A DNA stretch of 64,000 nt, taken from the NCBI GenBank assembly GCA_020773975.1, contig GCA_020773975.1_3638.1, one strand, 5' to 3'. The translations under genes and the position numbers were made by a program. Origin of the DNA: a phage. Positions 693 through 39,462 of the stretch are shown one piece after another (the first letter of the stretch is position 1; each line of letters starts with the position of its first letter). Under the pieces are notes generated by a model. That model was not told the DNA's origin. It did no database searches and saw only the letters and a list, made by a program, of their open reading frames with translations.

Positions 693-942
693 CATTATGT
701 TCAGAGTGGTTCGCAAGTCCACCCCCGCACCACTACGTGCTGCTGCATGTCACCATGCAGATCAGACTATATCTTCACACTTGGTGTGTCTACCATTTCG
801 AGTGTCATCGGCTTACACCCTACTCCGCTACATTCATCACGGTTAGTCGTTAGGCATTTACGGTTGATACCGATTTAGCACGGGATTCCCTCCATAGAGG
901 ATTTCCCCGTTTAGGCAGATTTTACATGAGCAGCTATAGTTT
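693..942 (-). mobile_element. Group I intron B (250 nt, ORF-less, T4-like IA2 type core)
   Basis: On the minus strand: P cuaaacggggaaaucc, Q gggaaucccgug, R gccuaacgacuaacc, S gaagauauagucu. Exon ends with U and intron ends with G. Joining the exons gives ...VTSMG|CRSFLS..., as in T4 NrdD. Confidence 0.65.
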
Positions 943-1242
943 ACCCATACTTGTAACACGCCCGTCTGAAGAACCTGTTACCTTTTTATTCAACGGTACA
1001 GATATGAAATCTGGATAAATCCTTTCAACACAACACTCCATAGCTAATTGCTTTAAGTCGTAGTTTGGATCGCCAGGCTTCATGTTTACACCATCTTCCA
1101 AGAAGAAGATAACTTTTGGAAAAACAGGTGTGACTTTATCTTTGCCAAGTCCGTTTTTGTGAACAAGAAGATAATTCTTTGTAATCATTCTCCCAAAATA
1201 AGAAGTATCAAGCCCAAGACTCAAGGTAATAAATGGGCATTG
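943..1242 (-). CDS. nrdD: NrdD exon 3 (QCPFITL...VTSMG)
   Basis: ORF 934..1245 matches the NrdD central region (GLGKDKVTPVFPK, DPNYDLKQLAMEC). Confidence 0.7.
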
Positions 1243-15055: not shown

Positions 15056-16185
15056 AGTACCCCTACCCTTTTCAATTCTGTTGCTAGTGTTGTTTTATCA
15101 TTGGGGTGTCTTTTCATGTAAACCATCTGGAAAATTACAGATGCCCATTGACCAGCACTCATCTTTTTAAGGCTTCCATCCCAAGATGTAAATTCAACCC
15201 CGTTTGGAAACCATGCCTTATACTGGTCAACAATTGCTTCCCACATCTCTTTTTCTGTTCCAAGATGCCCGATCAAATTGAAAGCCGCAGTATCCCCAAA
15301 TCTTCCGTTTATATCAAAGCACTGGTATGGTTTAATATTGTCAGAAATATCACCACAAAGCATCTGATAACCGAAGAACTTTTTGCCCCAGCCTTTAACC
15401 TTATTACCTTCCATCCATATTTCACCCATTGAGTCATCAATCAGCATTGGGGTTGGATGTTTCCACTGCTTCTCTCCGTTATCGCGCATCGTATCAAATA
15501 GCAGACCTGGTGTTCCTTTCTGATCCTTATCGAAGGATGCTATCAGGAAATTAAACTTACCTGTCTTCTTATAATTTTCCCACCCTGTGTACATTAGTAC
15601 GGATAAGTAATCATCTGCTTCAACACCATTGATGACTTTTGCATTGTACTTCTTCTTAACGTAATCTCGCGTTTCCTGTAAAAGCAACGGCCTGAGTAGA
15701 TCTTCCCTATTACCTTTATATCTCTCTGGGGCAGGAAGCATAAGACGGAAATTATTCTCGCCACCAAGAACACTAACACCTTGCTTGCTACTAATTTCAA
15801 GATGATCAAAAATAGCATTGATCTTCATTTTGAGAAGATGAAGGCAATTCTCAACAGGCTCCGGTGTTTGGATATCCTCAACAAGGAAGTCTTCCCTCGT
15901 CCAAGGTGTAAATGATTTTCCTGCGGCCTTTGCTTTCATTTCCATATTGGCATTTTGGTCTTTTAGCCAACCGCCTACAACTTTTTTGGTTGATCCCCAA
16001 AACTCTGTGCGATTACGAAACTCTTTAGATTTCCCAGATTTAATATGCGTCGCTCGGATGGTTCTTTTTTCAGAACCAGCAGCCGATACGTAACATGTTT
16101 GATCTAAATCTAAGACAATTACACAATCATTTGTGATTTTATCTTTCCAGTTTTTATCGTATGGATACCCCACAACACCTCTCAA
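15052..16185 (-). CDS. RNase H / 5'-3' exonuclease (FEN-like)
   Basis: VEADDYLSVLM and IASFDKDQ resemble the T4 RNase H/FEN catalytic motifs. Confidence 0.5.
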   Translation of the reverse strand: MRGVVGYPYDKNWKDKITNDCVIVLDLDQTCYVSAAGSEKRTIRATHIKSGKSKEFRNRTEFWGSTKKVVGGWLKDQNANMEMKAKAAGKSFTPWTREDFLVEDIQTPEPVENCLHLLKMKINAIFDHLEISSKQGVSVLGGENNFRLMLPAPERYKGNREDLLRPLLLQETRDYVKKKYNAKVINGVEADDYLSVLMYTGWENYKKTGKFNFLIASFDKDQKGTPGLLFDTMRDNGEKQWKHPTPMLIDDSMGEIWMEGNKVKGWGKKFFGYQMLCGDISDNIKPYQCFDINGRFGDTAAFNLIGHLGTEKEMWEAIVDQYKAWFPNGVEFTSWDGSLKKMSAGQWASVIFQMVYMKRHPNDKTTLATELKRVGVL

Positions 16186-16619
16186 GTATTACCTAAATAA
16201 TCTTTCAAATAGCTAACGTCAAGTTCCCATTCCTGACGCTTACTTCTCTCACGATACAGAGCAAACGCCTCTTCAACATATTTTTCGGCTACATGTTGAG
16301 GGATGTTGTTAACTTTCATGAAATGCTTCAAAGCTATATGCCCTCTACCTCGTAAACTAGCCAAACCAATATGTTTAACTTCGTGACACGATGGGCATAG
16401 TGCAATAAGACCTTTCAGGGTGATCTTACCATCTTCAAAATCCCATACCTCGTGGCATTCAACAGGGTGTTTATGTCCTTTGCCACCGCAGATTTCACAT
16501 TTATAACCTGCTTCTGCATAACATTTCTTTCTTACCTTGTCCCATTCTGATTTTGATAAGTAAGAACGTAAATTGTTGAACCATGCCGTTTTAGGTACTA
16601 GTTCAATAGTTAATCTCAT
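16182..16619 (-). CDS. HNH-type zinc-finger nuclease-like protein
   Basis: Cys/His-rich (CEICGGKGHKHPVECHEVWD...CPSCHEVKH). Confidence 0.4.
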   Translation of the reverse strand: MRLTIELVPKTAWFNNLRSYLSKSEWDKVRKKCYAEAGYKCEICGGKGHKHPVECHEVWDFEDGKITLKGLIALCPSCHEVKHIGLASLRGRGHIALKHFMKVNNIPQHVAEKYVEEAFALYRERSKRQEWELDVSYLKDYLGNT

Positions 16620-16817
16620 TCCGATTTCTCCCGAAGTACATATGCAAAATTCTCATCCAACTGGGCATTGGTAAAAGAGACAGCAGAGAACATATCATTA
16701 GTGCCTTCAAATCATAATCTTGACAAACAAGCCATCCAATGCTTACCAAACATAAAGACAGGATAAAACTTAACAACACTATTAACATATTTTTCATAAC
16801 AATCTATGTTCTATGTT

Positions 16818-17015
16818 TTAATGAAATATTCTTTTTGATGGGCAGCTTCCAGCACCTTCTTTAACCACTGTTTCTGTCCTATGCCCATCGCTATAAATAC
16901 AGACTTTGGAATCACCATCACGATATTCTGCCTCAAGGCTCAAGGTGTTTGTGGTAGAAATTGCTAGAGGACTAAACAGAAGTGAGGACAGGAGGATAAT
17001 GTTTTTAAATTTCAT
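16818..17015 (-). CDS. Small secreted/exported protein
   Basis: N-terminal signal-peptide-like segment (MKFKNIILLSSLLFSPLA). Confidence 0.3.
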   Translation of the reverse strand: MKFKNIILLSSLLFSPLAISTTNTLSLEAEYRDGDSKVCIYSDGHRTETVVKEGAGSCPSKRIFH

Positions 17016-17066
17016 TTTTACCACCTTTGAAAAAGCCCGATGAAAGCTCATCGGGCATACGGTATA

Positions 17067-17957
17067 TTATTTACCTGTAGGTAATGTTACAAACGGGGCT
17101 TGTGCTCCACTAGTCATATACACAGGTGTTACACCATTCCATTTATTAATGGCTTCAAGCTGCATAATCTCTGGATTTTTACGCAGGGCAGCACCACGTA
17201 GTTCAATAGACTCTGCATCACCTTTGGCAATCAAGATTTTAGCATCTGCTTCGCCTTGTGCCTGTAGGCGTTTAGACTCAGCCTCACCACGAGCAGCCTC
17301 GATACGTTTCTGAGCTTCAGCTTTCACTTGCTGAATTTCGTTTTCACGAAGCAGTGCTTTTTGTGTTGCTTCGATCTTAGCATTGATGGAAGCCGTTACC
17401 TGTGGAGGATACACCAGATCGTCAGTATAAGACAGCTTCACAAGCACAATACCAACAGGATCAAGTTTTTGTTTCAGATGCTTGGTTACACGCTCAAGCA
17501 GTTGTGTTTTTCCATCACCAGCCAGTGTACCGATATCCATTGAACCAGCTTCTTTGATCAAAGCATCAGAGATATTCTGGCGAATGTTTACCTCTGTAAT
17601 TTCTTGCACACCTTTACGGTACGTCTGGAAAATAGTCGTTACTTTAGAACGATCAACATAATACTCAACACCAATTTTCGCAGAAACTGTCATAGAGTCT
17701 TTTGTCTGGAAATTGAATAGTTGGTCATAGTTATGCAACTGGTTAAAAGTCGGGAACTGATAAATCTCTTCGTTCCAAGTCAGCCAGTACTTACCTACCC
17801 CAACCTCTTGTTGCTGGACACCTTTTTCATCACCGTACAGATCAACTTTAACGCCAACGTAACCTGCTGGAACGGTTGCACGCTCACAACCTGTGAGACC
17901 AATTGCAGAGACTGCAAGAATACCTGCAAAAATAACTCGTTTAATAGATTTAAACAT
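17067..17957 (-). CDS. SPFH/band-7 (stomatin/prohibitin/HflKC-like) lipoprotein
   Basis: Lipobox LTGC, band-7 core and coiled-coil AEAQKRIEAARGEAESKR tail. Confidence 0.55.
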   Translation of the reverse strand: MFKSIKRVIFAGILAVSAIGLTGCERATVPAGYVGVKVDLYGDEKGVQQQEVGVGKYWLTWNEEIYQFPTFNQLHNYDQLFNFQTKDSMTVSAKIGVEYYVDRSKVTTIFQTYRKGVQEITEVNIRQNISDALIKEAGSMDIGTLAGDGKTQLLERVTKHLKQKLDPVGIVLVKLSYTDDLVYPPQVTASINAKIEATQKALLRENEIQQVKAEAQKRIEAARGEAESKRLQAQGEADAKILIAKGDAESIELRGAALRKNPEIMQLEAINKWNGVTPVYMTSGAQAPFVTLPTGK

Positions 17958-17970
17958 TAAACCAATCTCC

Positions 17971-18183
17971 TTACTTTTTACGTTTTCCAGTTTTCTTCTT
18001 AGAAGACTTGCCTAAGAAGACCTTACGCCCCCATACAAAAACAATCATCGGAGACACAAACAACATTGCAAAACCACACATTACCATCAGTGTGTCTTTT
18101 GCAGAAAGCATTGTTGGTACTACAAATCCAATGATGACACAGATAAAAACAAGAATACCAACGCAATTTAAATACGTCTTCAC
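17971..18183 (-). CDS. Small membrane protein (possible NfeD-like partner of the SPFH protein)
   Basis: Two hydrophobic helices plus a basic tail; adjacent to the SPFH gene. Confidence 0.35.
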   Translation of the reverse strand: MKTYLNCVGILVFICVIIGFVVPTMLSAKDTLMVMCGFAMLFVSPMIVFVWGRKVFLGKSSKKKTGKRKK

Positions 18184-18185
18184 AA

Positions 18186-18503
18186 TTATCCCTCACGACC
18201 AAACAGAATATCCACCTCAGCCATTTGCTCAACCTTTTCCTCAAGGTCTTTTCGCTTCTTACCAGCTTGGTATTGTCGGTCAAATTCTGCATTTATCATT
18301 GCATTGATAAATTTAGGGTCGTATCCGTGGCTTTCTTTTTCTACGGATACAATATCTTTAAGCATGTCACTTGCGTCTTTTTTCATGATGCGAGCTTCAA
18401 CACCTTCCAAGATGACTTTTTTCAGTCGATCGCGCTCAACAGGATCAGAAGGTAAAGTATTTTTCAGTTCAATTTTTGTTTTAGGCATACGTGGCATTTT
18501 CAT
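18186..18503 (-). CDS. Hypothetical protein
   Basis: ORF only. Confidence 0.35.
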   Translation of the reverse strand: MKMPRMPKTKIELKNTLPSDPVERDRLKKVILEGVEARIMKKDASDMLKDIVSVEKESHGYDPKFINAMINAEFDRQYQAGKKRKDLEEKVEQMAEVDILFGREG

Positions 18504-18561
18504 CTCCTCTGTCTACGTATAAATTTAATTATAAAAATTTTATATGGTTTGTCAAGGGGTA

Positions 18562-29415: not shown

Positions 29416-29488
29416 GGCCCCTTAGCTCAGTGGTTAGAGCAGGTGACTCATAATCGCTTGGTCGCTGGTTCAAGTCCAGCAGGGGCCA
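29416..29488 (+). tRNA. tRNA-Met (anticodon CAT; could be initiator, elongator or lysidine-modified Ile2)
   Basis: Cloverleaf by eye: acceptor ggcccct/aggggcc, anticodon loop cuCAUaa, T-loop ttcaagt, 3' CCA encoded. Confidence 0.75.
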
Positions 29489-29543
29489 CCAAATGTGGCA
29501 CACGAAATAAACTAGGTTTATTGTTTTCGGAGGAGAAAACTTA

Positions 29544-29867
29544 ATGGCTAAGAAACAGTCTGCTAAAAAGGTATCAGCTATCGAGGCGATCAAGCAACCT
29601 TTTCAGTTTGAATCAAAATCCACGCAGACACATTCTGCACCGCACGATGTGCGTCTTGGTGGCAAAACGCAAACTGTAGCAGTTCTGAAAAAACGCAAAG
29701 ATGAAGACGGTAATACTGAAATGTATTATGAATCTGTGTCTCGTGTCATTGGTGGTGAAGTGATTTCTGCTTCCTATCGTATCCGTACTGGGAAAACAAA
29801 GCGTGAACGAGAAGTGAAACAGAAAACAAGCACTCCTGTAGAAAACGTTAAGAAAACTAAAAAATAA
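29544..29867 (+). CDS. Hypothetical basic protein
   Basis: ORF with RBS; lysine-rich. Confidence 0.35.
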   Translation: MAKKQSAKKVSAIEAIKQPFQFESKSTQTHSAPHDVRLGGKTQTVAVLKKRKDEDGNTEMYYESVSRVIGGEVISASYRIRTGKTKREREVKQKTSTPVENVKKTKK

Positions 29868-29943
29868 TTTACTGACGAGAGTGCCACCGTGAGCCAGCGT
29901 CATTAAACAAAGGGAATCACGGACATTCAGGAGGGTTGAGATT

Positions 29944-30138
29944 ATGATAGGATCTTTGCTTAAGATTGCAAGCGATGTAACAACAACGGCTGTTGAAGTG
30001 ACTGCTGCGGTAACAACTCCGTTTGTTGATTTAGCATCAGATGCTATAGCAGCAGCAGCAGACGAGATGATTTTGTCACCGACATCTGATCTTGTCCAAG
30101 ATCTTTGTGATTCTATAAAAGATGCTGTAAAAGATTAA
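29944..30138 (+). CDS. Hypothetical small protein
   Basis: ORF only. Confidence 0.3.
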   Translation: MIGSLLKIASDVTTTAVEVTAAVTTPFVDLASDAIAAAADEMILSPTSDLVQDLCDSIKDAVKD

Positions 30139-30211
30139 AATTTTTCTTGACATAGTTTTTGTTTTTCTGTATAGTTACTTTATCAAAGCTAATTTACATA
30201 TGAGAGATTGA

Positions 30212-30859
30212 ATGTCTACTAAGATTTCCGTAACTCGTGCACTTGCTTCTATCTCTAAGATTGAAGATAAGATCAATAAGCGTATTTATAACCTTGAATG
30301 TATTAAGATTGCAAAAGGAACTGAGAATAATTGTAAGATTCCTGGTTATATCGGCTCTGTTGATGATTTTAAGAAATCTGCGATCAACGACTATCAAAGT
30401 CTGCAAGACCTCTTGGCAGTTCGCGATGAACTGAAGGCAAAAATTGTCAAGTCTAATGCTGAGACAATTGTCAAAATTGGTAAGGTGTCTATGACAGTTG
30501 CTGAGGCAATCGAACGCAAACGGACGATTTGCTTTAAACAAGAGTTGTTAAACAAACTTTGTGCACAGCGTGCTTCTGCACAGCTTCTTCTGGCAAAAGA
30601 AGAAAAATCTCTGGAAGATAAACTTGAAAATGCCAGAGCGCCATATATCCAACGTGATAAAGCGCCAGATGCAGAGCAGATTAAGACTGTGGAAGCTCCC
30701 ATTCGAATGATGAACACACCATCGGTTGTGGATCCTCTTGAACTGGCTTCTAAGATTCGTTCTCTTGAAGAAGAGATTGAAGATTTCTTGTCTAACGTTG
30801 ATTTTGCGTTGTCTGAGTCAAACGCTAAGACAGAAATTGAGATTGAGCACTCTCTCTAA
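30212..30859 (+). CDS. Hypothetical protein (coiled-coil)
   Basis: ORF only. Confidence 0.35.
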   Translation: MSTKISVTRALASISKIEDKINKRIYNLECIKIAKGTENNCKIPGYIGSVDDFKKSAINDYQSLQDLLAVRDELKAKIVKSNAETIVKIGKVSMTVAEAIERKRTICFKQELLNKLCAQRASAQLLLAKEEKSLEDKLENARAPYIQRDKAPDAEQIKTVEAPIRMMNTPSVVDPLELASKIRSLEEEIEDFLSNVDFALSESNAKTEIEIEHSL

Positions 30860-31224
30860 AAGGCTCTGATAATATCATTATCGTTCCTTTGTTTTGAAAT
30901 TTAAAACATTGCTTTTGATTAACGAAGTTTACATCATCTTGCCTCCTGGGGATTGGAGGTTAAATATTCCCCACCATGTATCGTATATGTATGAGGATAA
31001 TACAGGACATAGATGCAGCGAGGCACACTAAGATGCCTTGTTGTTTCTACTAAGTAAAAGTTCATACAATAAAGGTCAATGGTCAAATGTAAAAGATGAA
31101 ACTTGAAAGTTAATTCTTGAAAGATAAAATTTCGTTTATCATCTGAAATCCTTGGCACAGGTTATGGCTCACAAGATATGGTCTGTAAAGCCTCAAGGCT
31201 GTTAATCGGAAGCAATGTCTTATT

Positions 31225-31296
31225 GCTCGTATAGCTCAACGGTAGAGCACCTGCCTTGTAAGCAGGGGGTTGCAGGTTCGAAACCTGCTGCGAGCA
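31225..31296 (+). tRNA. tRNA-Thr (anticodon TGT)
   Basis: Anticodon loop cuUGUaa, T-loop ttcgaaa, CCA encoded. Confidence 0.7.
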
Positions 31297-31301
31297 CCAA
31301 T

Positions 31302-31398
31302 GCTGGGTAAGCCCCTTGGCAAGGGCGAGGATTTATAATCCTGAAAATAGACGGGCTAGCCGTTGAATACATAGGTGGTTCGATTCCATCGCCCAGCT
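31302..31398 (+). tRNA. Atypical tRNA-like gene (~97 nt; canonical acceptor and T-arm, anticodon not confidently assignable)
   Basis: Acceptor gctgggt/gcccagc and T-arm ggtgg-ttcgatt-ccatc are canonical; the central region holds the palindrome aggatt-TAT-aatcct and a hairpin acgg-gctag-ccgt. Confidence 0.35.
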
Positions 31399-31598
31399 AC
31401 AAGTTTGTTTTATAGTGTATTAGCTTATATTATTCGATATAAATGCCTGATCAGCATTTGTTGGGAATGAGGCATACAATGCGTGAGAAAGCTATCGGTG
31501 CGCAACGTTGATTTCAAACGTATTCATGCTCGTAGAGCACCAACTGTGGAAGTTGGGGTGAGGTTGAGTAACCATACACTATAAAGCATTCTTATTCT

Positions 31599-31672
31599 CG
31601 GGGTGTAGCTCAGTTGGATAGAGCAGCGGCCTTCTAAGCCGTAGGTCACAGGTTCGAATCCTGTCTCCTCGA
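31599..31672 (+). tRNA. tRNA-Arg (anticodon TCT)
   Basis: D-arm tagctcagttggatagagca, anticodon loop cuUCUaa, T-loop ttcgaat, CCA encoded. Confidence 0.7.
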
Positions 31673-31751
31673 CCAGATTAACCCCAACTTGAGAATCGTC
31701 AGCGCGGCTCGTAAGACCCACTCTATAGGTTCTCTACTCGGGGTACTTATT

Positions 31752-31825
31752 GCACGGTTGCCGGAATTTGGTTACGGGTCTGTCTGCAAAACGGATATAT
31801 GTCGGTTCAAGTCCGACACCGTGCT
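31752..31825 (+). tRNA. tRNA-Cys (anticodon GCA)
   Basis: Acceptor gcacggt/accgtgc, anticodon loop cuGCAaa, T-loop ttcaagt, CCA encoded. Confidence 0.6.
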
Positions 31826-31865
31826 CCAAACTTTCAATTTCTTGGTAAATATGTTAAAATACCAC

Positions 31866-31894
31866 TTGACAGATATGTTTTTATTTGATAATAT
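31866..31894 (+). promoter_or_regulatory. Sigma70-like promoter (TTGACA-17-TAATAT)
   Basis: Near-consensus hexamers with 17 bp spacer ~20 nt upstream of the RBS/ATG at 31914. Confidence 0.55.
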
Positions 31895-31913
31895 CATTAA
31901 GTGGGGTTTTAAA

Positions 31914-32261
31914 ATGGCTACCAAGCAGCTTACAAAACGTAGAAGAGGAAAAGGTCGTCCTCTGAAAGAGGAATCTAATGCAATTCAGTTAGAGAAAAAT
32001 ATCCTAGATTTGAAAACGAATCTGATTGCAATGATTCCTGAAGCTCATCAGGTTCTTAGGGATTTGATGAAGAATGTGAATACAAAAGACAATATCAGAG
32101 AAAATATCGCTCGTTATGTTATTGAGAAAGGTGAGCAGATGCTTTCTGATTACTTTGATGAGGAAAACGAAGAGTTACTCGAAAAAGATAACTCAGAAAA
32201 AGCTCCTATTAAGGCAGCTAAACCATTCTCGACGGATATTGTTCAATTCAAACAAGGTTAA
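31914..32261 (+). CDS. Hypothetical basic protein (115 aa) inside the tRNA array
   Basis: ATG with upstream promoter; the longer ORF-track start at 31689 overlaps tRNA-Cys and is rejected. Confidence 0.4.
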   Translation: MATKQLTKRRRGKGRPLKEESNAIQLEKNILDLKTNLIAMIPEAHQVLRDLMKNVNTKDNIRENIARYVIEKGEQMLSDYFDEENEELLEKDNSEKAPIKAAKPFSTDIVQFKQG

Positions 32262-32262
32262 T

Positions 32263-32349
32263 GTGTCGTTAGACCGTAGGGGTAGCTGGGGAGACTGTAA
32301 ATCTCCTGTCTCGAAAGGGACTCGGGTAGTTCGACTCTATCACGGCACA
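32263..32349 (+). tRNA. tRNA-Tyr (anticodon GTA), class II with long variable arm
   Basis: Anticodon arm ggaga-cuGUAaa-tctcc, variable arm, T-loop ttcgact, CCA encoded. Confidence 0.65.
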
Positions 32350-32420
32350 CCAACTGAATCTGTACTGGCTTTGATGTGTGACGATACCCTCCAATCGTGG
32401 TTGTTGGGCCAGTACAGTTT

Positions 32421-32493
32421 GGGAGTGTAGATCAGTTAGTAGATCGCTCGACCGATAATCGAGAGGACGTAGGGGCAGAGCCTACCACTCCCA
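32421..32493 (+). tRNA. tRNA-like, apparent anticodon GAT (Ile), with non-canonical T-loop (possible pseudo-tRNA)
   Basis: Acceptor gggagtg/cactccc, anticodon arm ctcga-ccGAUaa-tcgag (C33), T-arm gtagg-GGCAGAG-cctac lacks the TTCRA consensus. Confidence 0.4.
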
Positions 32494-32501
32494 CCAAATA
32501 T

Positions 32502-32573
32502 GCATCCATAGTTTAATTGGGAAAACTACAGCCTTCCAAGCTGAAGTCGAGGGTTCGATACCCTCTGGATGCT
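32502..32573 (+). tRNA. tRNA-Gly (anticodon TCC)
   Basis: Acceptor gcatcca/tggatgc, anticodon loop cuUCCaa, T-loop ttcgata, CCA encoded. Confidence 0.65.
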
Positions 32574-32687
32574 CCAGTTAAAAGATGTCAATGAAATCCG
32601 CTTGGGTCAACTGAAGACCGTAACAAATTCCATGGTGTTGTGTTTGCGGTCCAACACCAGACATCTTCTATCTATGTACAGGCTTGA

Positions 32688-33251
32688 GTGCGTATGAGAT
32701 ACTTGAAATATTTATCGTGGATTCTGTTAGCACCTCTTGACCCAATTATGTCGGTTCTATGTGTTATTCTGGCTCCTTTTGTTGTTCCGTTCTATAATGA
32801 GAAGACAGGGCATCTACCTTATATTTTCAGGTGGATGGAAACATATGATAATCCTATAGATGGTGACAGAGGACACATAGAGAGATGGGAAGAAGTCCGT
32901 AAAATAGGAAGTTTTGGTGTTTACCTACAACGAGTTGCTTGGTTGTGGAGAAATAAAGCCTACAATTTTTCCTATCACGTACTTGGACGTGAAATCACAT
33001 CTGTGACAAAGTGGAAAGGAAACATCCATGTAAGCTCTGATGTGGAGGATAATCAACAAGGCTATTTGTTGATGTGGAATGACAATGCGTGGGGTGTATT
33101 CGCGTTTGTCCCGTCTTTTAGATTGTTTGGAAAACAATTTTACTGGCGAATTTATGTCGGTTGGAAACTGAAGAGTGTGGTTCCTGAAGACAGAGCTTTT
33201 TCAAGAGAGAGAGTGATGTTGGCATTTTTCATAAGTCCTTTCCGAAAATAG
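32688..33251 (+). CDS. Hypothetical membrane protein inside the tRNA array
   Basis: N-terminal hydrophobic helices (LSWILLAPLDPIMSVLCVILAPFVVPF); 187 aa. Confidence 0.4.
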   Translation: MRMRYLKYLSWILLAPLDPIMSVLCVILAPFVVPFYNEKTGHLPYIFRWMETYDNPIDGDRGHIERWEEVRKIGSFGVYLQRVAWLWRNKAYNFSYHVLGREITSVTKWKGNIHVSSDVEDNQQGYLLMWNDNAWGVFAFVPSFRLFGKQFYWRIYVGWKLKSVVPEDRAFSRERVMLAFFISPFRK

Positions 33252-33256
33252 TTTTT

Positions 33257-33336
33257 AATGAGAGTAGCGTAACTTCACTGGGTGAAGGCTGGCCTCCAAA
33301 ACCAGTGACTAAGAGGTTCGATTCCTCACTCTCGTG
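33257..33336 (+). tRNA. Non-canonical tRNA-like gene with apparent 8-bp acceptor / 4-bp T-stem, 6-bp D-stem; possible anticodon CCA
   Basis: Hand fold: acceptor atgagagt/actctcgt, D hairpin cttcac-tgg-gtgaag, anticodon arm gctgg(c)-cuCCAaa-(a)ccagt, T-arm gagg-ttcgatt-cctc. No CCA encoded. Confidence 0.35.
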
Positions 33337-33340
33337 CAAA

Positions 33341-33413
33341 AGGGGATTAGCATAGTGGCCTAATGCAACGGGCTTTGACCCCGTGATCGGTTGTTCGAAT
33401 CAACCATCCCCTG
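33341..33413 (+). tRNA. tRNA-Gln (anticodon TTG)
   Basis: Acceptor aggggat/atcccct, anticodon arm acggg-cuUUGac-cccgt, T-loop ttcgaat, CCA encoded. Confidence 0.7.
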
Positions 33414-33425
33414 CCAAGTTAAAAC

Positions 33426-33512
33426 GGAGAAGCAAATCGATTGGCGACGAAAACACATTGGAAATGTGCTGACTGGTAAAACGGATTGAGAGTTCGATTC
33501 TCTCCTTCTCCG
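33426..33512 (+). tRNA. tRNA-Ser (anticodon GGA), class II
   Basis: Acceptor ggagaag/cttctcc, anticodon loop uuGGAaa, long variable region, T-arm gagag-ttcgatt-ctctc, G73, CCA encoded. Confidence 0.6.
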
Positions 33513-33549
33513 CCAGTTTTTAATTACTAAGGTATTGGAAGATTAACCC

Positions 33550-33627
33550 TAATTTGGTAAGGGGTCTCCCTGCTGAGGAGATAGTAACCCAGAAATGGGT
33601 GTGACAGTTCGATTCTGTCAGCCTCCT
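33550..33627 (+). tRNA. tRNA-like element with canonical T-arm, acceptor 3' strand and CCA but non-canonical 5' half (GNRA hairpin where the anticodon arm should be)
   Basis: T-arm gacag-ttcgatt-ctgtc, then agcctcc-t-cca; upstream hairpin accca-GAAA-tgggt. The 5' boundary is uncertain. Confidence 0.3.
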
Positions 33628-33857
33628 CCAAGTTATCTTTAATGTAGCTTGTTATTCTTACTTTAGCAGAGTAAATCTTCGGCAAGTGGCGGTAACCACT
33701 TTACCGATACCCCAGAGCAGTCCGCTCTTTACTGGCGTAAGTCAAACACTCATGATGGTCATGTAATCGTAATCTATCATTAGTGTGCCCTCCCTAGAGG
33801 GCTGTTGCGTATAGCTAATTATGTGCGAGTAATTAGCTATTTTAAAGATAATTTAAA

Positions 33858-33931
33858 GGATCTGTAGCCAAATGGTTTAAGGCACTCGACTTTTAATCGA
33901 GGGATTGTTAGTTCGAATCTAACCAGATCCA
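33858..33931 (+). tRNA. tRNA-Lys (anticodon TTT)
   Basis: Acceptor ggatctg/cagatcc, anticodon arm ctcga-cuUUUaa-tcgag, T-loop ttcgaat, CCA encoded. Confidence 0.75.
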
Positions 33932-33953
33932 CCAAAATATTCTGGTTCTTTGA

Positions 33954-34041
33954 CCGAGTGGTCGATGGTGACGGCCTGTTAAGCCGTTGGGAGGAATCTC
34001 CCCACCGAAGGTTCGAATCCTTCAGGAACCGCCAATTCTTG
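33954..34041 (+). tRNA. Class II (Ser-like, long variable arm, G73) tRNA carrying apparent anticodon GTT (Asn codons)
   Basis: Acceptor ggttctt/aggaacc, D-arm acc-gagtggtcgat-ggt, anticodon arm acggc-cuGUUaa-gccgt, variable hairpin gggag-gaat-ctccc, T-arm gaagg-ttcgaat-ccttc, G73, CCA encoded. Confidence 0.5.
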
Positions 34042-34120
34042 ACTTAATCAAGTCACAGATATCACCTAGCCAGCGATACCAGTTAGTAGATTCTGGGACA
34101 ATTAAAATCTACATCTCTCT

Positions 34121-34195
34121 CTGTCCGTAGCGCAGCTTGGGTAGCGCGGGTCACTTGGGATGATCAGGTCGTTGGTTCAAATCCAACCGGACAGA
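34121..34195 (+). tRNA. tRNA-Pro (anticodon TGG)
   Basis: D-arm gcgc-agcttgggta-gcgc, anticodon arm ggtca-cuUGGga-tgatc, T-loop ttcaaat, CCA encoded. Confidence 0.7.
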
Positions 34196-34240
34196 CCAAC
34201 AAACATATACATATCAAAGCAGAAATGTACAGAGGATACC

Positions 34241-34432
34241 ATGTTAACAGTTAAAGTCGTATCTCCAAATGATGAACAAATTTTTTGTGGCAAAATTGTT
34301 GGGTATTGTGCTCATCAAAAGTCTATAGCTATTTCAGGTATTGACCAAAAAGTGTTTTTGTCTGAGGATCAGACAGCTTATGTTATCAATGCCAATGGGA
34401 AAACTATTTCTGTGTATCGTGGAAAACCATAA
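34241..34432 (+). CDS. Hypothetical small protein (63 aa)
   Basis: ATG with SD agagga; the longer ORF-track start overlaps tRNA-Pro and is rejected. Confidence 0.35.
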   Translation: MLTVKVVSPNDEQIFCGKIVGYCAHQKSIAISGIDQKVFLSEDQTAYVINANGKTISVYRGKP

Positions 34433-34446
34433 CTGTTGATATAAAT

Positions 34447-34520
34447 GGGCGATTGATGGAATTGGTATACATGTCAGGCTTAGAACCTGAATTTTGGGGG
34501 TTCGAGTCCCTCATCGCCTA
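34447..34520 (+). tRNA. Class I tRNA with apparent anticodon TAG (Leu codon CUA) but no long variable arm; A73
   Basis: Acceptor gggcgat/atcgcct, anticodon arm tcagg-cuUAGaa-cctga, 5-nt variable loop, T-arm ggggg-ttcgagt-ccctc, CCA encoded. Confidence 0.5.
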
Positions 34521-34528
34521 CCAATCAT

Positions 34529-34601
34529 GTGACGGTAACTCAGTTGGTAGAGTGCCTTGCTGAAGACTAGGTGGTCACAGGTTCGAACCCTGTCCGTCAC
34601 A
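34529..34601 (+). tRNA. tRNA-Phe (anticodon GAA)
   Basis: Acceptor gtgacgg/ccgtcac, D-arm actc-agttggta-gagt, anticodon loop cuGAAga, T-loop ttcgaac, CCA encoded. Confidence 0.7.
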
Positions 34602-34610
34602 CCAAATTAT

Positions 34611-34686
34611 TGCAGAGTGGTGGAAATGGATTTACCATGTTAGGTTCATACCCTGAAGATTGCAGGTTCGACTCCTGCCTCTGCAT
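34611..34686 (+). tRNA. Second CAT-anticodon tRNA (Met or Ile2)
   Basis: Acceptor tgcagag/ctctgca, anticodon arm ttagg-uuCAUac-cctga, T-loop ttcgact, CCA encoded. Confidence 0.6.
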
Positions 34687-34707
34687 CCAAGAATAAGAGA
34701 GAGTATT

Positions 34708-39081: not shown

Positions 39082-39111
39082 TGCAATATACCTTTATAGG
39101 TTTCGATGAGG
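39082..39111 (+). CDS. terL: Terminase large subunit, micro-exon 2a (Walker B region ...QYTFIGFDEG)
   Basis: In-frame segment between two intron cores encoding a hhhhDE Walker B-like motif; stop follows within 6 codons unless spliced. Confidence 0.45.
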
Positions 39112-39462
39112 GTAGAACAGTGTGCTCTCTATAAACCCCTTTAATTGACGGGTAACTCTTTATACATATCACCACTAAGTAGGTATGGTAACATATTTAT
39201 GGTCAACGGTAATGACGTTGAGTATAGTAACAGTGTGAATGTTTAGACAATCCGCAGCGAAGCATCCCTACGGGATGAACGTTCAACGACTATCGCTTAC
39301 GGGCGTTAGGGCCAAGCGGTGAGGGAAACCTCCGGTTGATTATCAACCGCCGAAACAGGGGGGTGTGTAATAACACACAAGATATAGTCTGATCTGCATG
39401 GTGACATGCAGCAGCACGTAGTGGTGCGGGATAAGAGTAGCGATCTTATCTGAACAAAAACG
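39112..39462 (+). mobile_element. Group I intron 2 in terL (~351 nt, ORF-less)
   Basis: Q aauccgcagc (39246), R guucaacgacuaucg, S aagauauagucu (39381), then the shared block cugcauggugacaugcagcagcacguaguggugcggg. Ends in G before ACA CAA TTC... Confidence 0.6.

What the first reader, a model, noticed from the sequence alone, without database searches (positions are those of the whole stretch)
17067..18183. Phage-encoded SPFH/band-7 lipoprotein with an adjacent small membrane protein
A stomatin/prohibitin-type protein with lipobox and coiled-coil tail is followed by a 70 aa two-helix membrane protein, resembling the bacterial SPFH-NfeD operon arrangement. Such membrane-scaffold pairs are uncommon in phage genomes and could modulate host membrane proteases or superinfection.
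Basis: partly seen in the sequence, partly recalled or inferred. Interest (0 to 1): 0.4.

Follow-up and report, generated by a model that had tools for sequence, protein, structure and literature searches.

The report
Phage SPFH lipoprotein with membrane-partner cassette
A virulent enterobacterial phage carries an early operon encoding a lipid-anchored, periplasm-facing SPFH (stomatin/HflK-like) scaffold protein and a tiny two-helix membrane protein; the two travel together as a mobile pair (sometimes fused) through many unrelated phages, are not an SPFH-NfeD pair, and have no known function.

Summary
On the minus strand, 17957..17067 encodes a 296-aa protein with a signal peptide, an LTGC lipobox, a Band_7/SPFH domain (Pfam E=5.5e-20), a 76-residue helix and an HflK/C-like predicted fold. 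A 70-aa two-helix membrane protein is encoded at 18183..17971. It lies upstream of the SPFH gene, not after it.

With a 105-aa regulator-like gene, the two form one early unit between a perfect sigma-70 promoter and an intrinsic terminator.

- The small protein is not NfeD. It has no OB-fold domain and no NfeD hit by Pfam, PDB profile or a 5.8-billion-protein profile search.
- Phage SPFH genes are not rare: 775 of 50,697 phage records carry a homologue (PHROG 200).

What appears undescribed is the pairing. A 55-80-aa two-helix partner with a P-x-L-x-S motif sits directly upstream of the SPFH gene in 22 of 25 unrelated genomic contexts, usually overlapping it by 4-8 nt. In 17 distinct protein clusters the two are fused in frame.

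My best model is that they assemble together at the inner membrane into an HflK/C-like periplasmic cage. It is an accessory, early-expressed envelope device. Its biological role is unproven; superinfection exclusion or membrane protection is my leading guess.

The parts
18528..18555 (-). Sigma-70 consensus promoter TTGACA-16 nt-TATAAT (12 of 12 matches) in front of the operon
   Evidence: Scan; read directly. PVP-SE1 has an annotated promoter at the equivalent place.
18186..18503 (-). First gene of the unit: 105-aa regulator-like protein (PHROG 639 'transcriptional regulator'). Its stop codon lies 2 nt before the start of the small membrane gene.
   Evidence: No Pfam family. Weak PDB hit to GapR/UPF0335 at E=0.055. 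It is co-transcribed here and in PVP-SE1, but was not seen next to the pair in the other annotated contexts examined.
17971..18183 (-). 70-aa two-helix inner-membrane partner protein. Predicted N-in/C-in hairpin with conserved P23 and S27 at the periplasmic end of helix 1 and a basic cytoplasmic tail.
   Evidence: Conserved upstream of the SPFH gene in 85 of 87 loci. Fused to SPFH in 17 protein clusters.
17067..17957 (-). 296-aa SPFH/Band-7 lipoprotein precursor: signal peptide 1-23, lipobox LTGC with Cys24, SPFH domain 26-177, long helix 185-260, and a conserved C-terminal KWNG-x-x-P motif in a low-confidence tail.
17886..17897 (-). Codons for the lipobox L21-T22-G23-C24; Cys24 is the predicted lipidation and cleavage site.
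   Evidence: Sequence. In the loci fetched, 46 of 72 unique homologues have a lipobox at this position and 26 have an uncleaved transmembrane anchor instead.
17035..17056 (-). Intrinsic terminator GCCCGATGA-GCTT-TCATCGGGC followed by TTTTT, 10 nt after the SPFH stop codon. It closes the three-gene unit.
   Evidence: Scan; read directly.

Best explanation
This is an accessory, early-transcribed phage cassette.

Proposed sequence of events:
1. Host RNA polymerase reads a three-gene unit (regulator-like gene, two-helix membrane gene, SPFH gene) from a consensus sigma-70 promoter.
2. The 70-aa protein inserts into the cytoplasmic membrane as a helical hairpin. Both ends face the cytoplasm, and a 4-5-residue loop with the conserved P-x-L-x-S motif sits at the periplasmic surface.
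3. The SPFH protein is exported, lipidated at Cys24 and held against the periplasmic face of the same membrane. Only about three residues separate the lipid anchor from the first SPFH strand.
4. The two assemble roughly 1:1. The SPFH subunits oligomerise through their long helices into an HflK/C-like ring or cage that fences off a patch of inner membrane containing the hairpins.

The cassette is dispensable for basic replication and moves between phages as a unit. That pattern fits a conditional job at the envelope. The most likely jobs are shielding the infected cell's membrane or blocking entry of competing phages.

What is shown computationally: domain, fold, lipobox, operon signals, conserved pairing, gene fusions and mobility.

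What is inferred: cage assembly, inner-membrane location for the lipobox forms, stoichiometry and the biological role.
For: - SPFH identity and cage-type architecture: Pfam, NCBIfam, the AlphaFold2 model and Foldseek hits to HflK/C, prohibitin, stomatin, erlin and QmcA. All of these form closed cages in solved structures (PMC12478178).
- Operon: perfect promoter, 2-nt and 13-nt intergenic gaps, Shine-Dalgarno sites and a terminator.
- Conserved pairing: 85 of 87 loci have an upstream small ORF with two or more predicted helices, and 84 carry the motif. There are 63 unique partner sequences. The genes commonly overlap by 4 or 8 nt. In the partner alignment P23 is invariant and S27 nearly so.
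- Mobility: the flanks fall into 25 unrelated contexts, 22 of which carry the motif-bearing pair. These include Vequintavirinae, the N4-like Erwinia phage S6, a P1-like phage, a Salmonella prophage, Pseudomonas and Agrobacterium phages, a Stx2a phage and ~110-kb E. coli plasmids that look like phage-plasmids.
- Gene fusions: 20 of the 150 best cluster representatives carry a 60-105-aa N-terminal extension. In 17 of them it is the two-helix domain with the motif, fused in frame to SPFH. The three fused ORFs I looked up (one of them with a diverged motif) each translate to the query on their source contigs.
- Inner-membrane site: 26 of 72 unique homologues, at 54-60% identity, replace the lipobox with an uncleaved transmembrane anchor yet keep the same partner. 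Fused forms are three-helix proteins.
- Early or replication-region placement in the annotated contexts.
- Accessory status: a distant family member, T5.080, is 'Not Fit' in a knock-down screen (PMC11879866 supplement).
Against: - No experiment exists on any member of this subfamily. Papers that mention the gene call its role unclear (PMC13239085, PMC8540360).
- Residues +2/+3 after the lipidated Cys are E-R here and are mixed in relatives: ER 20, DR 11, SV 7. By the E. coli Asp+2 retention rule, which I cite from memory, E at +2 predicts export to the outer membrane. That would separate the SPFH protein from its partner.
- A prophage-encoded HflK/C-like SPFH protein of Pasteurella was reported in outer-membrane vesicles (PMC9872710). 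Its relatedness to this protein was not tested.
- Oligomerisation, stoichiometry and contact between the two proteins were not computed; no multimer prediction was available.
- Gene-order conservation is partly inflated by sampling. The 80 viral loci are the closest relatives (49% identity or more).
- The Ounavirinae homologue lacks any membrane partner.
- The proposed biological role rests on analogy only.
Confidence: 0.55

Rival explanations
1. It is a genuine SPFH-NfeD operon. The small protein would be a short NfeD that promotes or regulates SPFH oligomerisation through an OB-fold domain.
For: A membrane protein is encoded next to and co-transcribed with an SPFH gene, as in qmcA-ybbJ or PH1510-PH1511. 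In the QmcA-YbbJ cage the NfeD partner is present at 1:1 (26 heterodimers).
Against: The protein has 70 aa, with only 18 residues after helix 2, so there is no room for the OB fold. There is no PF01957 hit for it or for 30 relatives. A family profile hits YbbJ at E=7.9 only. All 35 significant profile hits among 5.8 billion proteins are 58-78 aa with no domain. The topology is also opposite: this SPFH faces the periplasm, whereas QmcA-YbbJ protrudes into the cytoplasm.
Confidence: 0.05
2. It is an HflK/C mimic. The phage cage captures or displaces host FtsH in the inner membrane and so changes degradation of phage or host substrates (CII-like regulators, LpxC, membrane proteins).
For: HflK is the best NCBIfam hit (E=2.9e-11), and HflC/HflK are the best PDB sequence and fold hits. 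It shares the periplasm-facing topology of HflK/C. The cassette also occurs in temperate phages and what appear to be phage-plasmids, where FtsH control of lysogeny would matter. Papers have speculated along these lines.
Against: Scores are far below the HflK/HflC equivalog cut-offs (43 against 159 bits; 22 against 134). There is a single SPFH gene rather than a K/C pair. The cassette sits in strictly virulent phages too. This model gives no role to the obligatory two-helix partner. No FtsH contact could be tested.
Confidence: 0.15
3. It is an outer-membrane lipoprotein that masks a receptor or otherwise blocks adsorption or entry at the outer membrane, like T5 Llp or the Cor proteins. The small protein would be an unrelated or merely assisting neighbour.
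For: It has a lipobox with Glu at +2, not the classical Asp inner-membrane retention signal (the rule is from memory). It is expressed early like T5 llp. A prophage SPFH protein was reported in outer-membrane vesicles (PMC9872710).
Against: 26 of 72 unique close homologues have a transmembrane anchor that cannot reach the outer membrane, yet keep the same partner. There are in-frame fusions to the inner-membrane hairpin. At 296 aa with a cage-type SPFH fold, it is unlike the small receptor-binding lipoproteins. Its host range, from Enterobacteria to Pseudomonas and Agrobacterium, argues against one specific receptor.
Confidence: 0.1
4. It is a lysis-timing device. The 70-aa protein would be a class II holin-like pore former, and the SPFH protein its periplasmic regulator (antiholin-like).
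For: A small protein with two helices, N-in/C-in topology and a highly charged C-terminal tail is the textbook class II holin outline (from memory). In Staphylococcus phage G1 the distant SPFH homologue lies next to the endolysin.
Against: Here and in the other annotated contexts the pair sits among early, replication or nucleotide-metabolism genes, not beside an endolysin or spanin. It is driven by a consensus host promoter typical of early genes. The PVP-SE1 annotation notes no phage rV5 homologue for these genes (indirect evidence that the pair is accessory within Vequintavirinae). Only 1 of 30 partners gave a weak holin-family hit, E=0.009. The basic tail is not conserved across the family.
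Confidence: 0.08

Closest known systems
E. coli HflK/HflC (SPFH cage around FtsH; PDB 7vhq, 7wi3, 9cz2)
   Same: Best sequence and fold match. N-terminal membrane anchor with the whole SPFH domain and long helix in the periplasm. Expected to fence off an inner-membrane patch.
   Different: Far below the family cut-offs. One gene instead of a K/C pair. A lipid anchor instead of a transmembrane helix in this phage. It has an obligatory two-helix partner that HflK/C lacks. FtsH binding is unknown.
SPFH-NfeD operons (QmcA-YbbJ, PDB 8z5g; Pyrococcus PH1511-PH1510; YqiK-YqiJ; FloA-NfeD)
   Same: The SPFH gene is co-transcribed with a small membrane-protein gene. The expected stoichiometry is 1:1 (26 heterodimers in QmcA-YbbJ). 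It is therefore likely to work in a similar way, as scaffold plus membrane partner.
   Different: The partner has no OB-fold domain and no detectable NfeD homology. The SPFH protein faces the periplasm rather than the cytoplasm.
PHROG 200 'lipoprotein' and PHROG 1130 'membrane protein' (phage orthologous groups); PVP-SE1 gp117 and gp115
   Same: The window proteins are members (E=1e-86 and 4e-21). Their PVP-SE1 orthologues are about 90% and 61% identical.
   Different: The databases list the two families separately with no function. I found no paper describing the conserved pairing or the fusions.
Phage T5 gene T5.080 and Staphylococcus Kayvirus MbpS (distant phage SPFH proteins)
   Same: Phage-encoded, membrane-anchored SPFH proteins in PHROG 200 or found by tblastn. 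T5.080 is dispensable in the laboratory ('Not Fit').
   Different: Only about 24-26% identical. Transmembrane-anchored. No two-helix P-x-L-x-S partner: T5 has none, and phage G1 has a 102-aa single-helix protein upstream.
Early envelope proteins of virulent phages that exclude superinfection (T4 Imm and Sp, T5 Llp)
   Same: Small, early-expressed membrane, periplasmic or lipoproteins that are dispensable in single infections. This is a functional analogy only, drawn from memory.
   Different: No sequence or fold relationship. None of them contains an SPFH domain.

Membership tests
SPFH / Band 7 superfamily (PF01145) | Profile match above the curated threshold | tested here: met
   72.6 bits against a cut-off of 23.6, E=5.5e-20, covering 2-176 of the 176 profile positions.
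SPFH / Band 7 superfamily (PF01145) | SPFH alpha/beta domain followed by a long coiled-coil helix, as in cage-forming members | tested here: met
   AlphaFold2 pLDDT 82, strands and helices at 26-177, helix at 185-260. Foldseek matches to HflC/K, prohibitin, stomatin, erlin, QmcA and flotillin at E=1e-14 to 1e-8.
SPFH / Band 7 superfamily (PF01145) | Assembly into a large ring or cage on a membrane | not testable with these tools
   No multimer prediction was available. Inferred from the solved relatives only.
Bacterial lipoprotein | Signal peptide ending in a lipobox [LVI][ASTVI][GAS]C | tested here: met
   MFKSIKRVIFAGILAVSAIG-LTGC, Cys24. The lipobox is present at this position in 46 of 72 unique homologues, and the Cys is invariant in 18 fused forms.
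Bacterial lipoprotein | Actual lipidation, signal peptidase II cleavage and membrane sorting | not testable with these tools
   Needs globomycin or palmitate labelling and membrane fractionation.
NfeD (PF01957) | C-terminal OB-fold beta-barrel domain | tested here: not met
   70 aa with only 18 residues after helix 2. No PF01957 hit for the protein or for 30 relatives. All profile hits are 58-78 aa with no domain.
NfeD (PF01957) | Sequence similarity to known NfeD proteins | tested here: not met
   The family profile against YbbJ (8z5g_B) gives E=7.9, which is noise.
NfeD (PF01957) | N-terminal transmembrane helices and an operon with an SPFH gene | tested here: met
   Two helices, 13 nt upstream of the SPFH gene. 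This feature alone does not define the family.
HflK / HflC (TIGR01933, TIGR01932) | Score above the equivalog cut-off | tested here: not met
   43.3 bits against 159.4 for HflK; 22.5 against 134.4 for HflC.
HflK / HflC (TIGR01933, TIGR01932) | Two paralogous SPFH genes (K and C) forming a hetero-oligomer | tested here: not met
   There is a single SPFH gene in the operon and in all loci examined.
HflK / HflC (TIGR01933, TIGR01932) | Binding and regulation of FtsH | not testable with these tools
   Needs co-purification or substrate-stability assays.
Class II holin | Small protein with two transmembrane helices, N-in/C-in, and a charged C-terminus | tested here: met
   Hydropathy and charge distribution. 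The outline is generic.
Class II holin | Encoded with endolysin or spanin genes; match to a holin family | tested here: not met
   The neighbours are a regulator-like gene, an HNH endonuclease, an exonuclease and a ligase. No Pfam holin hit for the window protein, and 1 of 30 relatives at E=0.009.
Phage two-helix partner + SPFH cassette (defined in this study) | 55-80-aa two-helix protein with P-x-[LMI]-x-S at the end of helix 1, encoded directly upstream of (or fused to) a periplasm-facing SPFH protein that ends in KW[ND]G-x-x-P | tested here: met
   The window protein has VPTMLS at positions 22-27 (P23, S27) and the SPFH protein has KWNGVTP at 272-278. The pair is seen in 22 of 25 contexts and as 17 fusions.

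The most novel reading that the evidence does not exclude
The pair is a previously unrecognised, widespread class of phage membrane device. It would be a minimal, lipid-anchored periplasmic SPFH nanocage whose obligatory two-helix partner forms the enclosed or gated membrane element. Phages would use it early in infection either to exclude competing phages or to blunt host defences that kill by damaging the inner membrane.

A corollary concerns the fused forms. They keep an invariant internal lipobox cysteine, so they may be polyproteins cut by signal peptidase II into the same two parts.
Probability: 0.25. Interest if true: 0.7.

Novelty: new variant of a known kind. Interest (0 to 1): 0.5.

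Why it matters
[quoted passage not shown] What the cages do is still largely unknown.

A phage version offers several advantages as a model:
- It is small, self-contained and lipid-anchored.
- It has a single 60-70-aa partner.
- It is dispensable and horizontally mobile, so it is genetically tractable for asking what an SPFH cage encloses and why.

For phage biology, the cassette is found in therapeutic-candidate phages (PVP-SE1-like, N4-like, Pseudomonas phages), in Stx-converting phages and in E. coli plasmids that look like phage-plasmids. In the papers I read it has been treated as a possible lysogeny marker or simply as a gene of unclear role. Knowing that it is a two-part early envelope module gives a concrete hypothesis to test.

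If it turns out to be ordinary membrane housekeeping, the practical gain is better annotation. These genes are not serine proteases, transposase fusions or NfeD pairs, as several records call them.

Tried and rejected
1. **P1 plp/upl.** I recalled that phage P1 'plp' (putative lipoprotein) with 'upl' upstream might be the same module. The P1 record shows plp is 125 aa, on the other strand and not SPFH. A P1-like phage carries the cassette in that slot instead. Rejected.
2. **NfeD.** Tested four ways, all negative.
3. **Anti-phage defence libraries.** PADLOC gave only a meaningless SspF hit at E=0.002.
4. **Literature.** Seven full-text searches found no functional study of a phage SPFH protein and no description of the pairing. 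An apparent 'prohibitin' hit in the CRISPRi-ART paper was the word 'prohibiting'. Its supplement did, however, show that T5.080 belongs to PHROG 200 and is 'Not Fit'. T5.080 proved to be only a distant relative with no partner.
5. **The downstream 65-aa secreted protein (17015..16818).** I tested it as a third component. It occurs in 102 Vequintavirinae-type records, lies after the terminator, and was not found outside that phage group, whereas the pair is. I treat it as an independent neighbour.
6. **Small-protein homology searches.** The single-sequence search found only close relatives. The family had to be recovered by gene position.
7. **AlphaFold2 of a fused member.** It gave three helices plus the SPFH domain, but the tool reports no contacts. 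It could not test how the hairpin packs against SPFH.
8. **Absence from phage rV5.** I did not verify this directly. It is inferred only from the PVP-SE1 annotation notes.
Full report
**What is there**

The region lies in a run of minus-strand genes. The DNA is 95% identical to Escherichia phage vB_EcoM_TH18 (Vequintavirinae), where all six genes under the match are annotated 'hypothetical protein'. The SPFH gene is about 80% identical to the 'lipoprotein' gene of Salmonella phage PVP-SE1 and its relatives.

The 296-aa product of 17957..17067 matches several profile libraries:
- Pfam Band_7/SPFH at E=5.5e-20, 72.6 bits against a cut-off of 23.6.
- PHROG 200 'lipoprotein' at E=1e-86.
- HflK weakly, at E=2.9e-11, far below the equivalog cut-off.

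Its N-terminus is a typical lipoprotein signal peptide ending in L-T-G-C24, and there is no other hydrophobic segment. The whole mature protein is therefore predicted to be periplasmic and lipid-anchored.

An AlphaFold2 model built on 48 homologues (pLDDT 82) shows four parts:
- an SPFH beta/alpha domain at 26-177;
- one continuous helix at 185-260;
- a short helix at 263-271;
- a disordered tail that carries an invariant W273-x-G275-x-x-P278 motif.

Foldseek places it with the cage-forming SPFH proteins HflC/HflK (E=1e-14), prohibitin, stomatin, erlin and QmcA. PDB sequence hits are HflC and QmcA at E of about 1e-4 to 1e-3.

The 70-aa product of 18183..17971 (GTG start) has two hydrophobic helices joined by the loop SAKDT and ends in RKVFLGKSSKKKTGKRKK. 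By the positive-inside rule, both termini are cytoplasmic and the loop is periplasmic. It matches PHROG 1130 'membrane protein' (E=4e-21) and no Pfam family above threshold.

**Transcription unit**

- A perfect TTGACA-16-TATAAT promoter lies at 18555..18528.
- It is followed by a Shine-Dalgarno site and a 105-aa regulator-like gene at 18503..18186 (PHROG 639).
- Two nucleotides later comes the small membrane gene.
- Thirteen nucleotides later comes the SPFH gene, whose Shine-Dalgarno site overlaps the stop codon of the small gene.
- Ten nucleotides after the SPFH stop codon there is a 9-bp GC-rich hairpin with a T-run at 17056..17035.

This looks like a three-gene unit read early by host RNA polymerase. 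PVP-SE1 has an annotated promoter at the equivalent place.

The SPFH call is right, and so is the presence of a two-helix neighbour. The neighbour is upstream, however, not downstream.

It is not NfeD:
- There is no room for, and no match to, the OB-fold domain that defines NfeD.
- A 30-member family profile hits YbbJ of the QmcA-YbbJ structure only at E=7.9.
- A profile search of 5.8 billion proteins returns 35 hits, all 58-78 aa and all without a domain.

Phage SPFH genes are not rare either. tblastn finds homologues in 775 of 50,697 phage records, including Staphylococcus Kayvirus MbpS, Pseudomonas, Erwinia, Bacillus, Klebsiella and Caulobacter phages, crAss-like phages and haloarchaeal viruses. 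A profile of the close subfamily finds 495 clusters (50% identity level) at E<=1e-30 and 2,563 at E<=1e-10 among 1.84 billion representatives.

**The pairing**

BLAST with the small protein finds it only in 69 Vequintavirinae-type records, so I looked by gene position instead.

I examined 87 loci: 80 viral contigs from IMG/VR, four annotated phage records and three copies of a Salmonella prophage locus.
- 85 have a small ORF with two or more predicted helices directly upstream of the SPFH gene.
- 84 of those carry the motif P-x-[LMIVWA]-[LIVMF]-[SN]-x at the end of helix 1. There are 63 unique partner sequences.
- The two ORFs commonly overlap by 4 or 8 nt.
- In a gap-poor alignment of 30 diverse partners, P23 is invariant and S27 nearly so, although overall identity is only 24%.

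Clustering the 1.5-kb flanks by tblastx gives 25 contexts with no detectable similarity to each other. The motif-bearing pair is present in 22 of them. Contexts carrying the pair include:
- PVP-SE1-like myoviruses;
- the N4-like Erwinia phage S6;
- a P1-like phage, where the pair occupies the slot that holds plp/upl/tciABC in P1 itself;
- a Salmonella prophage, between the single-strand-binding protein and DNA polymerase A genes;
- Pseudomonas and Agrobacterium phages at 36-38% SPFH identity;
- a Stx2a-converting phage;
- ~110-kb E. coli plasmids that look like phage-plasmids, where the pair sits between recA and a DUF7238 gene. NCBI annotates the pair there as 'membrane protein' and 'SPFH domain-containing protein'.

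In more distant lineages the SPFH gene still has a small membrane-protein neighbour, but of a different kind:
- Caulobacter phage: 116 aa, three helices, upstream.
- Staphylococcus phage G1: 102 aa, one helix, upstream.
- Bacillus phage: 44 aa, one helix, upstream.
- Halorubrum virus: 44 aa, one helix, downstream.
- crAss-like phage: 108 aa, three helices, downstream.
- The Ounavirinae example has none.

**Fusions**

Among the 150 best cluster representatives, 20 have a 60-105-aa N-terminal extension. In 17 of these the extension is the two-helix domain with the motif. It is followed by a charged linker, a third hydrophobic segment that looks like a lipoprotein signal peptide, and then the SPFH domain.

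The three fused ORFs I looked up (P0135, P0141 and P0138; P0135 is one of those lacking an internal Met, and the motif of P0138 is diverged) each translate to the query on their source contigs. An AlphaFold2 model of one of them shows three helices before the SPFH domain. Such gene fusions are classical evidence that two proteins work in one complex. They also fix the complex in the inner membrane with the SPFH domain outside.

Independently, 26 of 72 unique homologues (54-60% identical to the window protein) have no lipobox but an uncleaved transmembrane anchor, and they keep the same partner. Unexpectedly, the lipobox Cys is invariant in all 18 aligned fusions.

**How it most likely works**

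All solved relatives form closed cages that isolate a membrane patch. I therefore propose that the lipidated SPFH subunits ring up on the periplasmic face of the inner membrane, together with an equal number of two-helix hairpins. The conserved periplasmic-edge motif of each hairpin would meet the anchor-proximal part of SPFH.

The cassette's distribution is patchy and mobile. It sits in early or replication regions. A distant T5 member is dispensable in a knock-down screen. Together these point to a conditional envelope function during lytic growth.

Superinfection exclusion or protection of the membrane is my leading guess, at about 0.3. FtsH modulation, outer-membrane receptor masking and lysis control are weaker rivals.

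The main uncertainty is sorting. Glu at +2 after the lipidated Cys is not the classical inner-membrane retention signal, and a prophage SPFH protein of Pasteurella was reported in outer-membrane vesicles.

**Novelty**

The two gene families are catalogued (PHROG 200 and 1130), and the SPFH domain has been noted in several genome papers that call its role unclear. I found no description of the conserved partner, its motif, the fusions or the cassette's mobility.

I rate it a new variant of a known kind: an SPFH-plus-membrane-partner operon, but periplasmic, lipid-anchored and without NfeD. Interest is moderate.

Noticed in passing
window 18186-18503 (-): The first gene of the operon (105 aa, PHROG 639 'transcriptional regulator') has no Pfam family. 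Its only PDB hit is weak, to GapR/UPF0335, a DNA-binding nucleoid protein (E=0.055). PVP-SE1 has it in the same position and notes similarity to rV5 gp153.
   Followed up: partly
window 16818-17015 (-): A 65-aa protein with a signal peptide and two cysteines (PHROG 4641) starts just after the operon terminator. The longer 77-aa ORF call (from 17051) would run through the terminator hairpin. Homologues occur in 102 Vequintavirinae-type phage records, and it was not found outside that phage group.
   Followed up: partly
window 16603-16797 (-) and 16182-16619 (-): A 64-aa hydrophobic ORF overlaps the start of an HNH endonuclease gene (PHROG 5200, E=5e-72). PVP-SE1 has an unrelated 67-aa membrane protein at the equivalent place. 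This stretch therefore collects several small envelope-directed genes.
   Followed up: no
L002 5884-6048 (PVP-SE1 gp116) and L010-L017, L088: In PVP-SE1-like phages a 54-57-aa soluble ORF (MLLNLKASTWEKLQ...) is inserted between the two-helix gene and the SPFH gene, overlapping the SPFH start by 8-17 nt. Judged by eye, it may be a ribbon-helix-helix type protein. The window phage lacks it.
   Followed up: no
P0131-P0256 (fused homologues), alignment A4: All 18 fused two-helix-SPFH proteins keep an invariant Cys in a canonical lipobox after the third hydrophobic segment. They may be cut by signal peptidase II into a hairpin fragment plus a lipoprotein, which would be an unusual internal use of that pathway.
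   Followed up: partly
L096 218-520 and 710-1807: On one metagenomic phage-like contig, a fused two-helix-SPFH gene lies two genes downstream of a gene with the Acb2/Tad1 hairpin domain (anti-CBASS/anti-Thoeris sponge family). This hints at an anti-defence neighbourhood, but it is a single case.
   Followed up: no
L094 (E. coli plasmid pECAZ155_2) and 32 similar plasmids: In E. coli complete genomes, DNA similar to the cassette is found only on ~104-128-kb plasmids (33 of 5,426 genomes) and never on chromosomes. On the one plasmid examined it sits between recA and a DUF7238 gene. By size and gene content these look like phage-plasmids.
   Followed up: partly
window 29416-34689 (+): A cluster of 15-16 tRNA genes: Met x2, Thr, Arg, Cys, Tyr, Gly, Gln, Ser x2, Lys, Asn, Pro, Leu, Phe, plus one extra called only by Rfam at 32421-32493.
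   Followed up: no
window 743-981 (-) and 39086-39411 (+): Two group I catalytic introns above the Rfam gathering score (74.7 and 67.9 bits). The interrupted genes were not examined.
   Followed up: no
L099 892-1839 (phage T5 gene T5.080): Phage T5 encodes a distant, transmembrane-anchored SPFH protein assigned to PHROG 200. It sits next to tRNA-Arg and the stable RNA 'RNAX', and scored 'Not Fit' in the CRISPRi-ART screen.
   Followed up: partly
L091 (Staphylococcus phage G1) 445-2286: In Kayvirus the distant SPFH homologue (MbpS) and its 102-aa single-helix upstream partner lie directly after the endolysin gene. This differs from the replication-region placement seen in the proteobacterial phages.
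   Followed up: no
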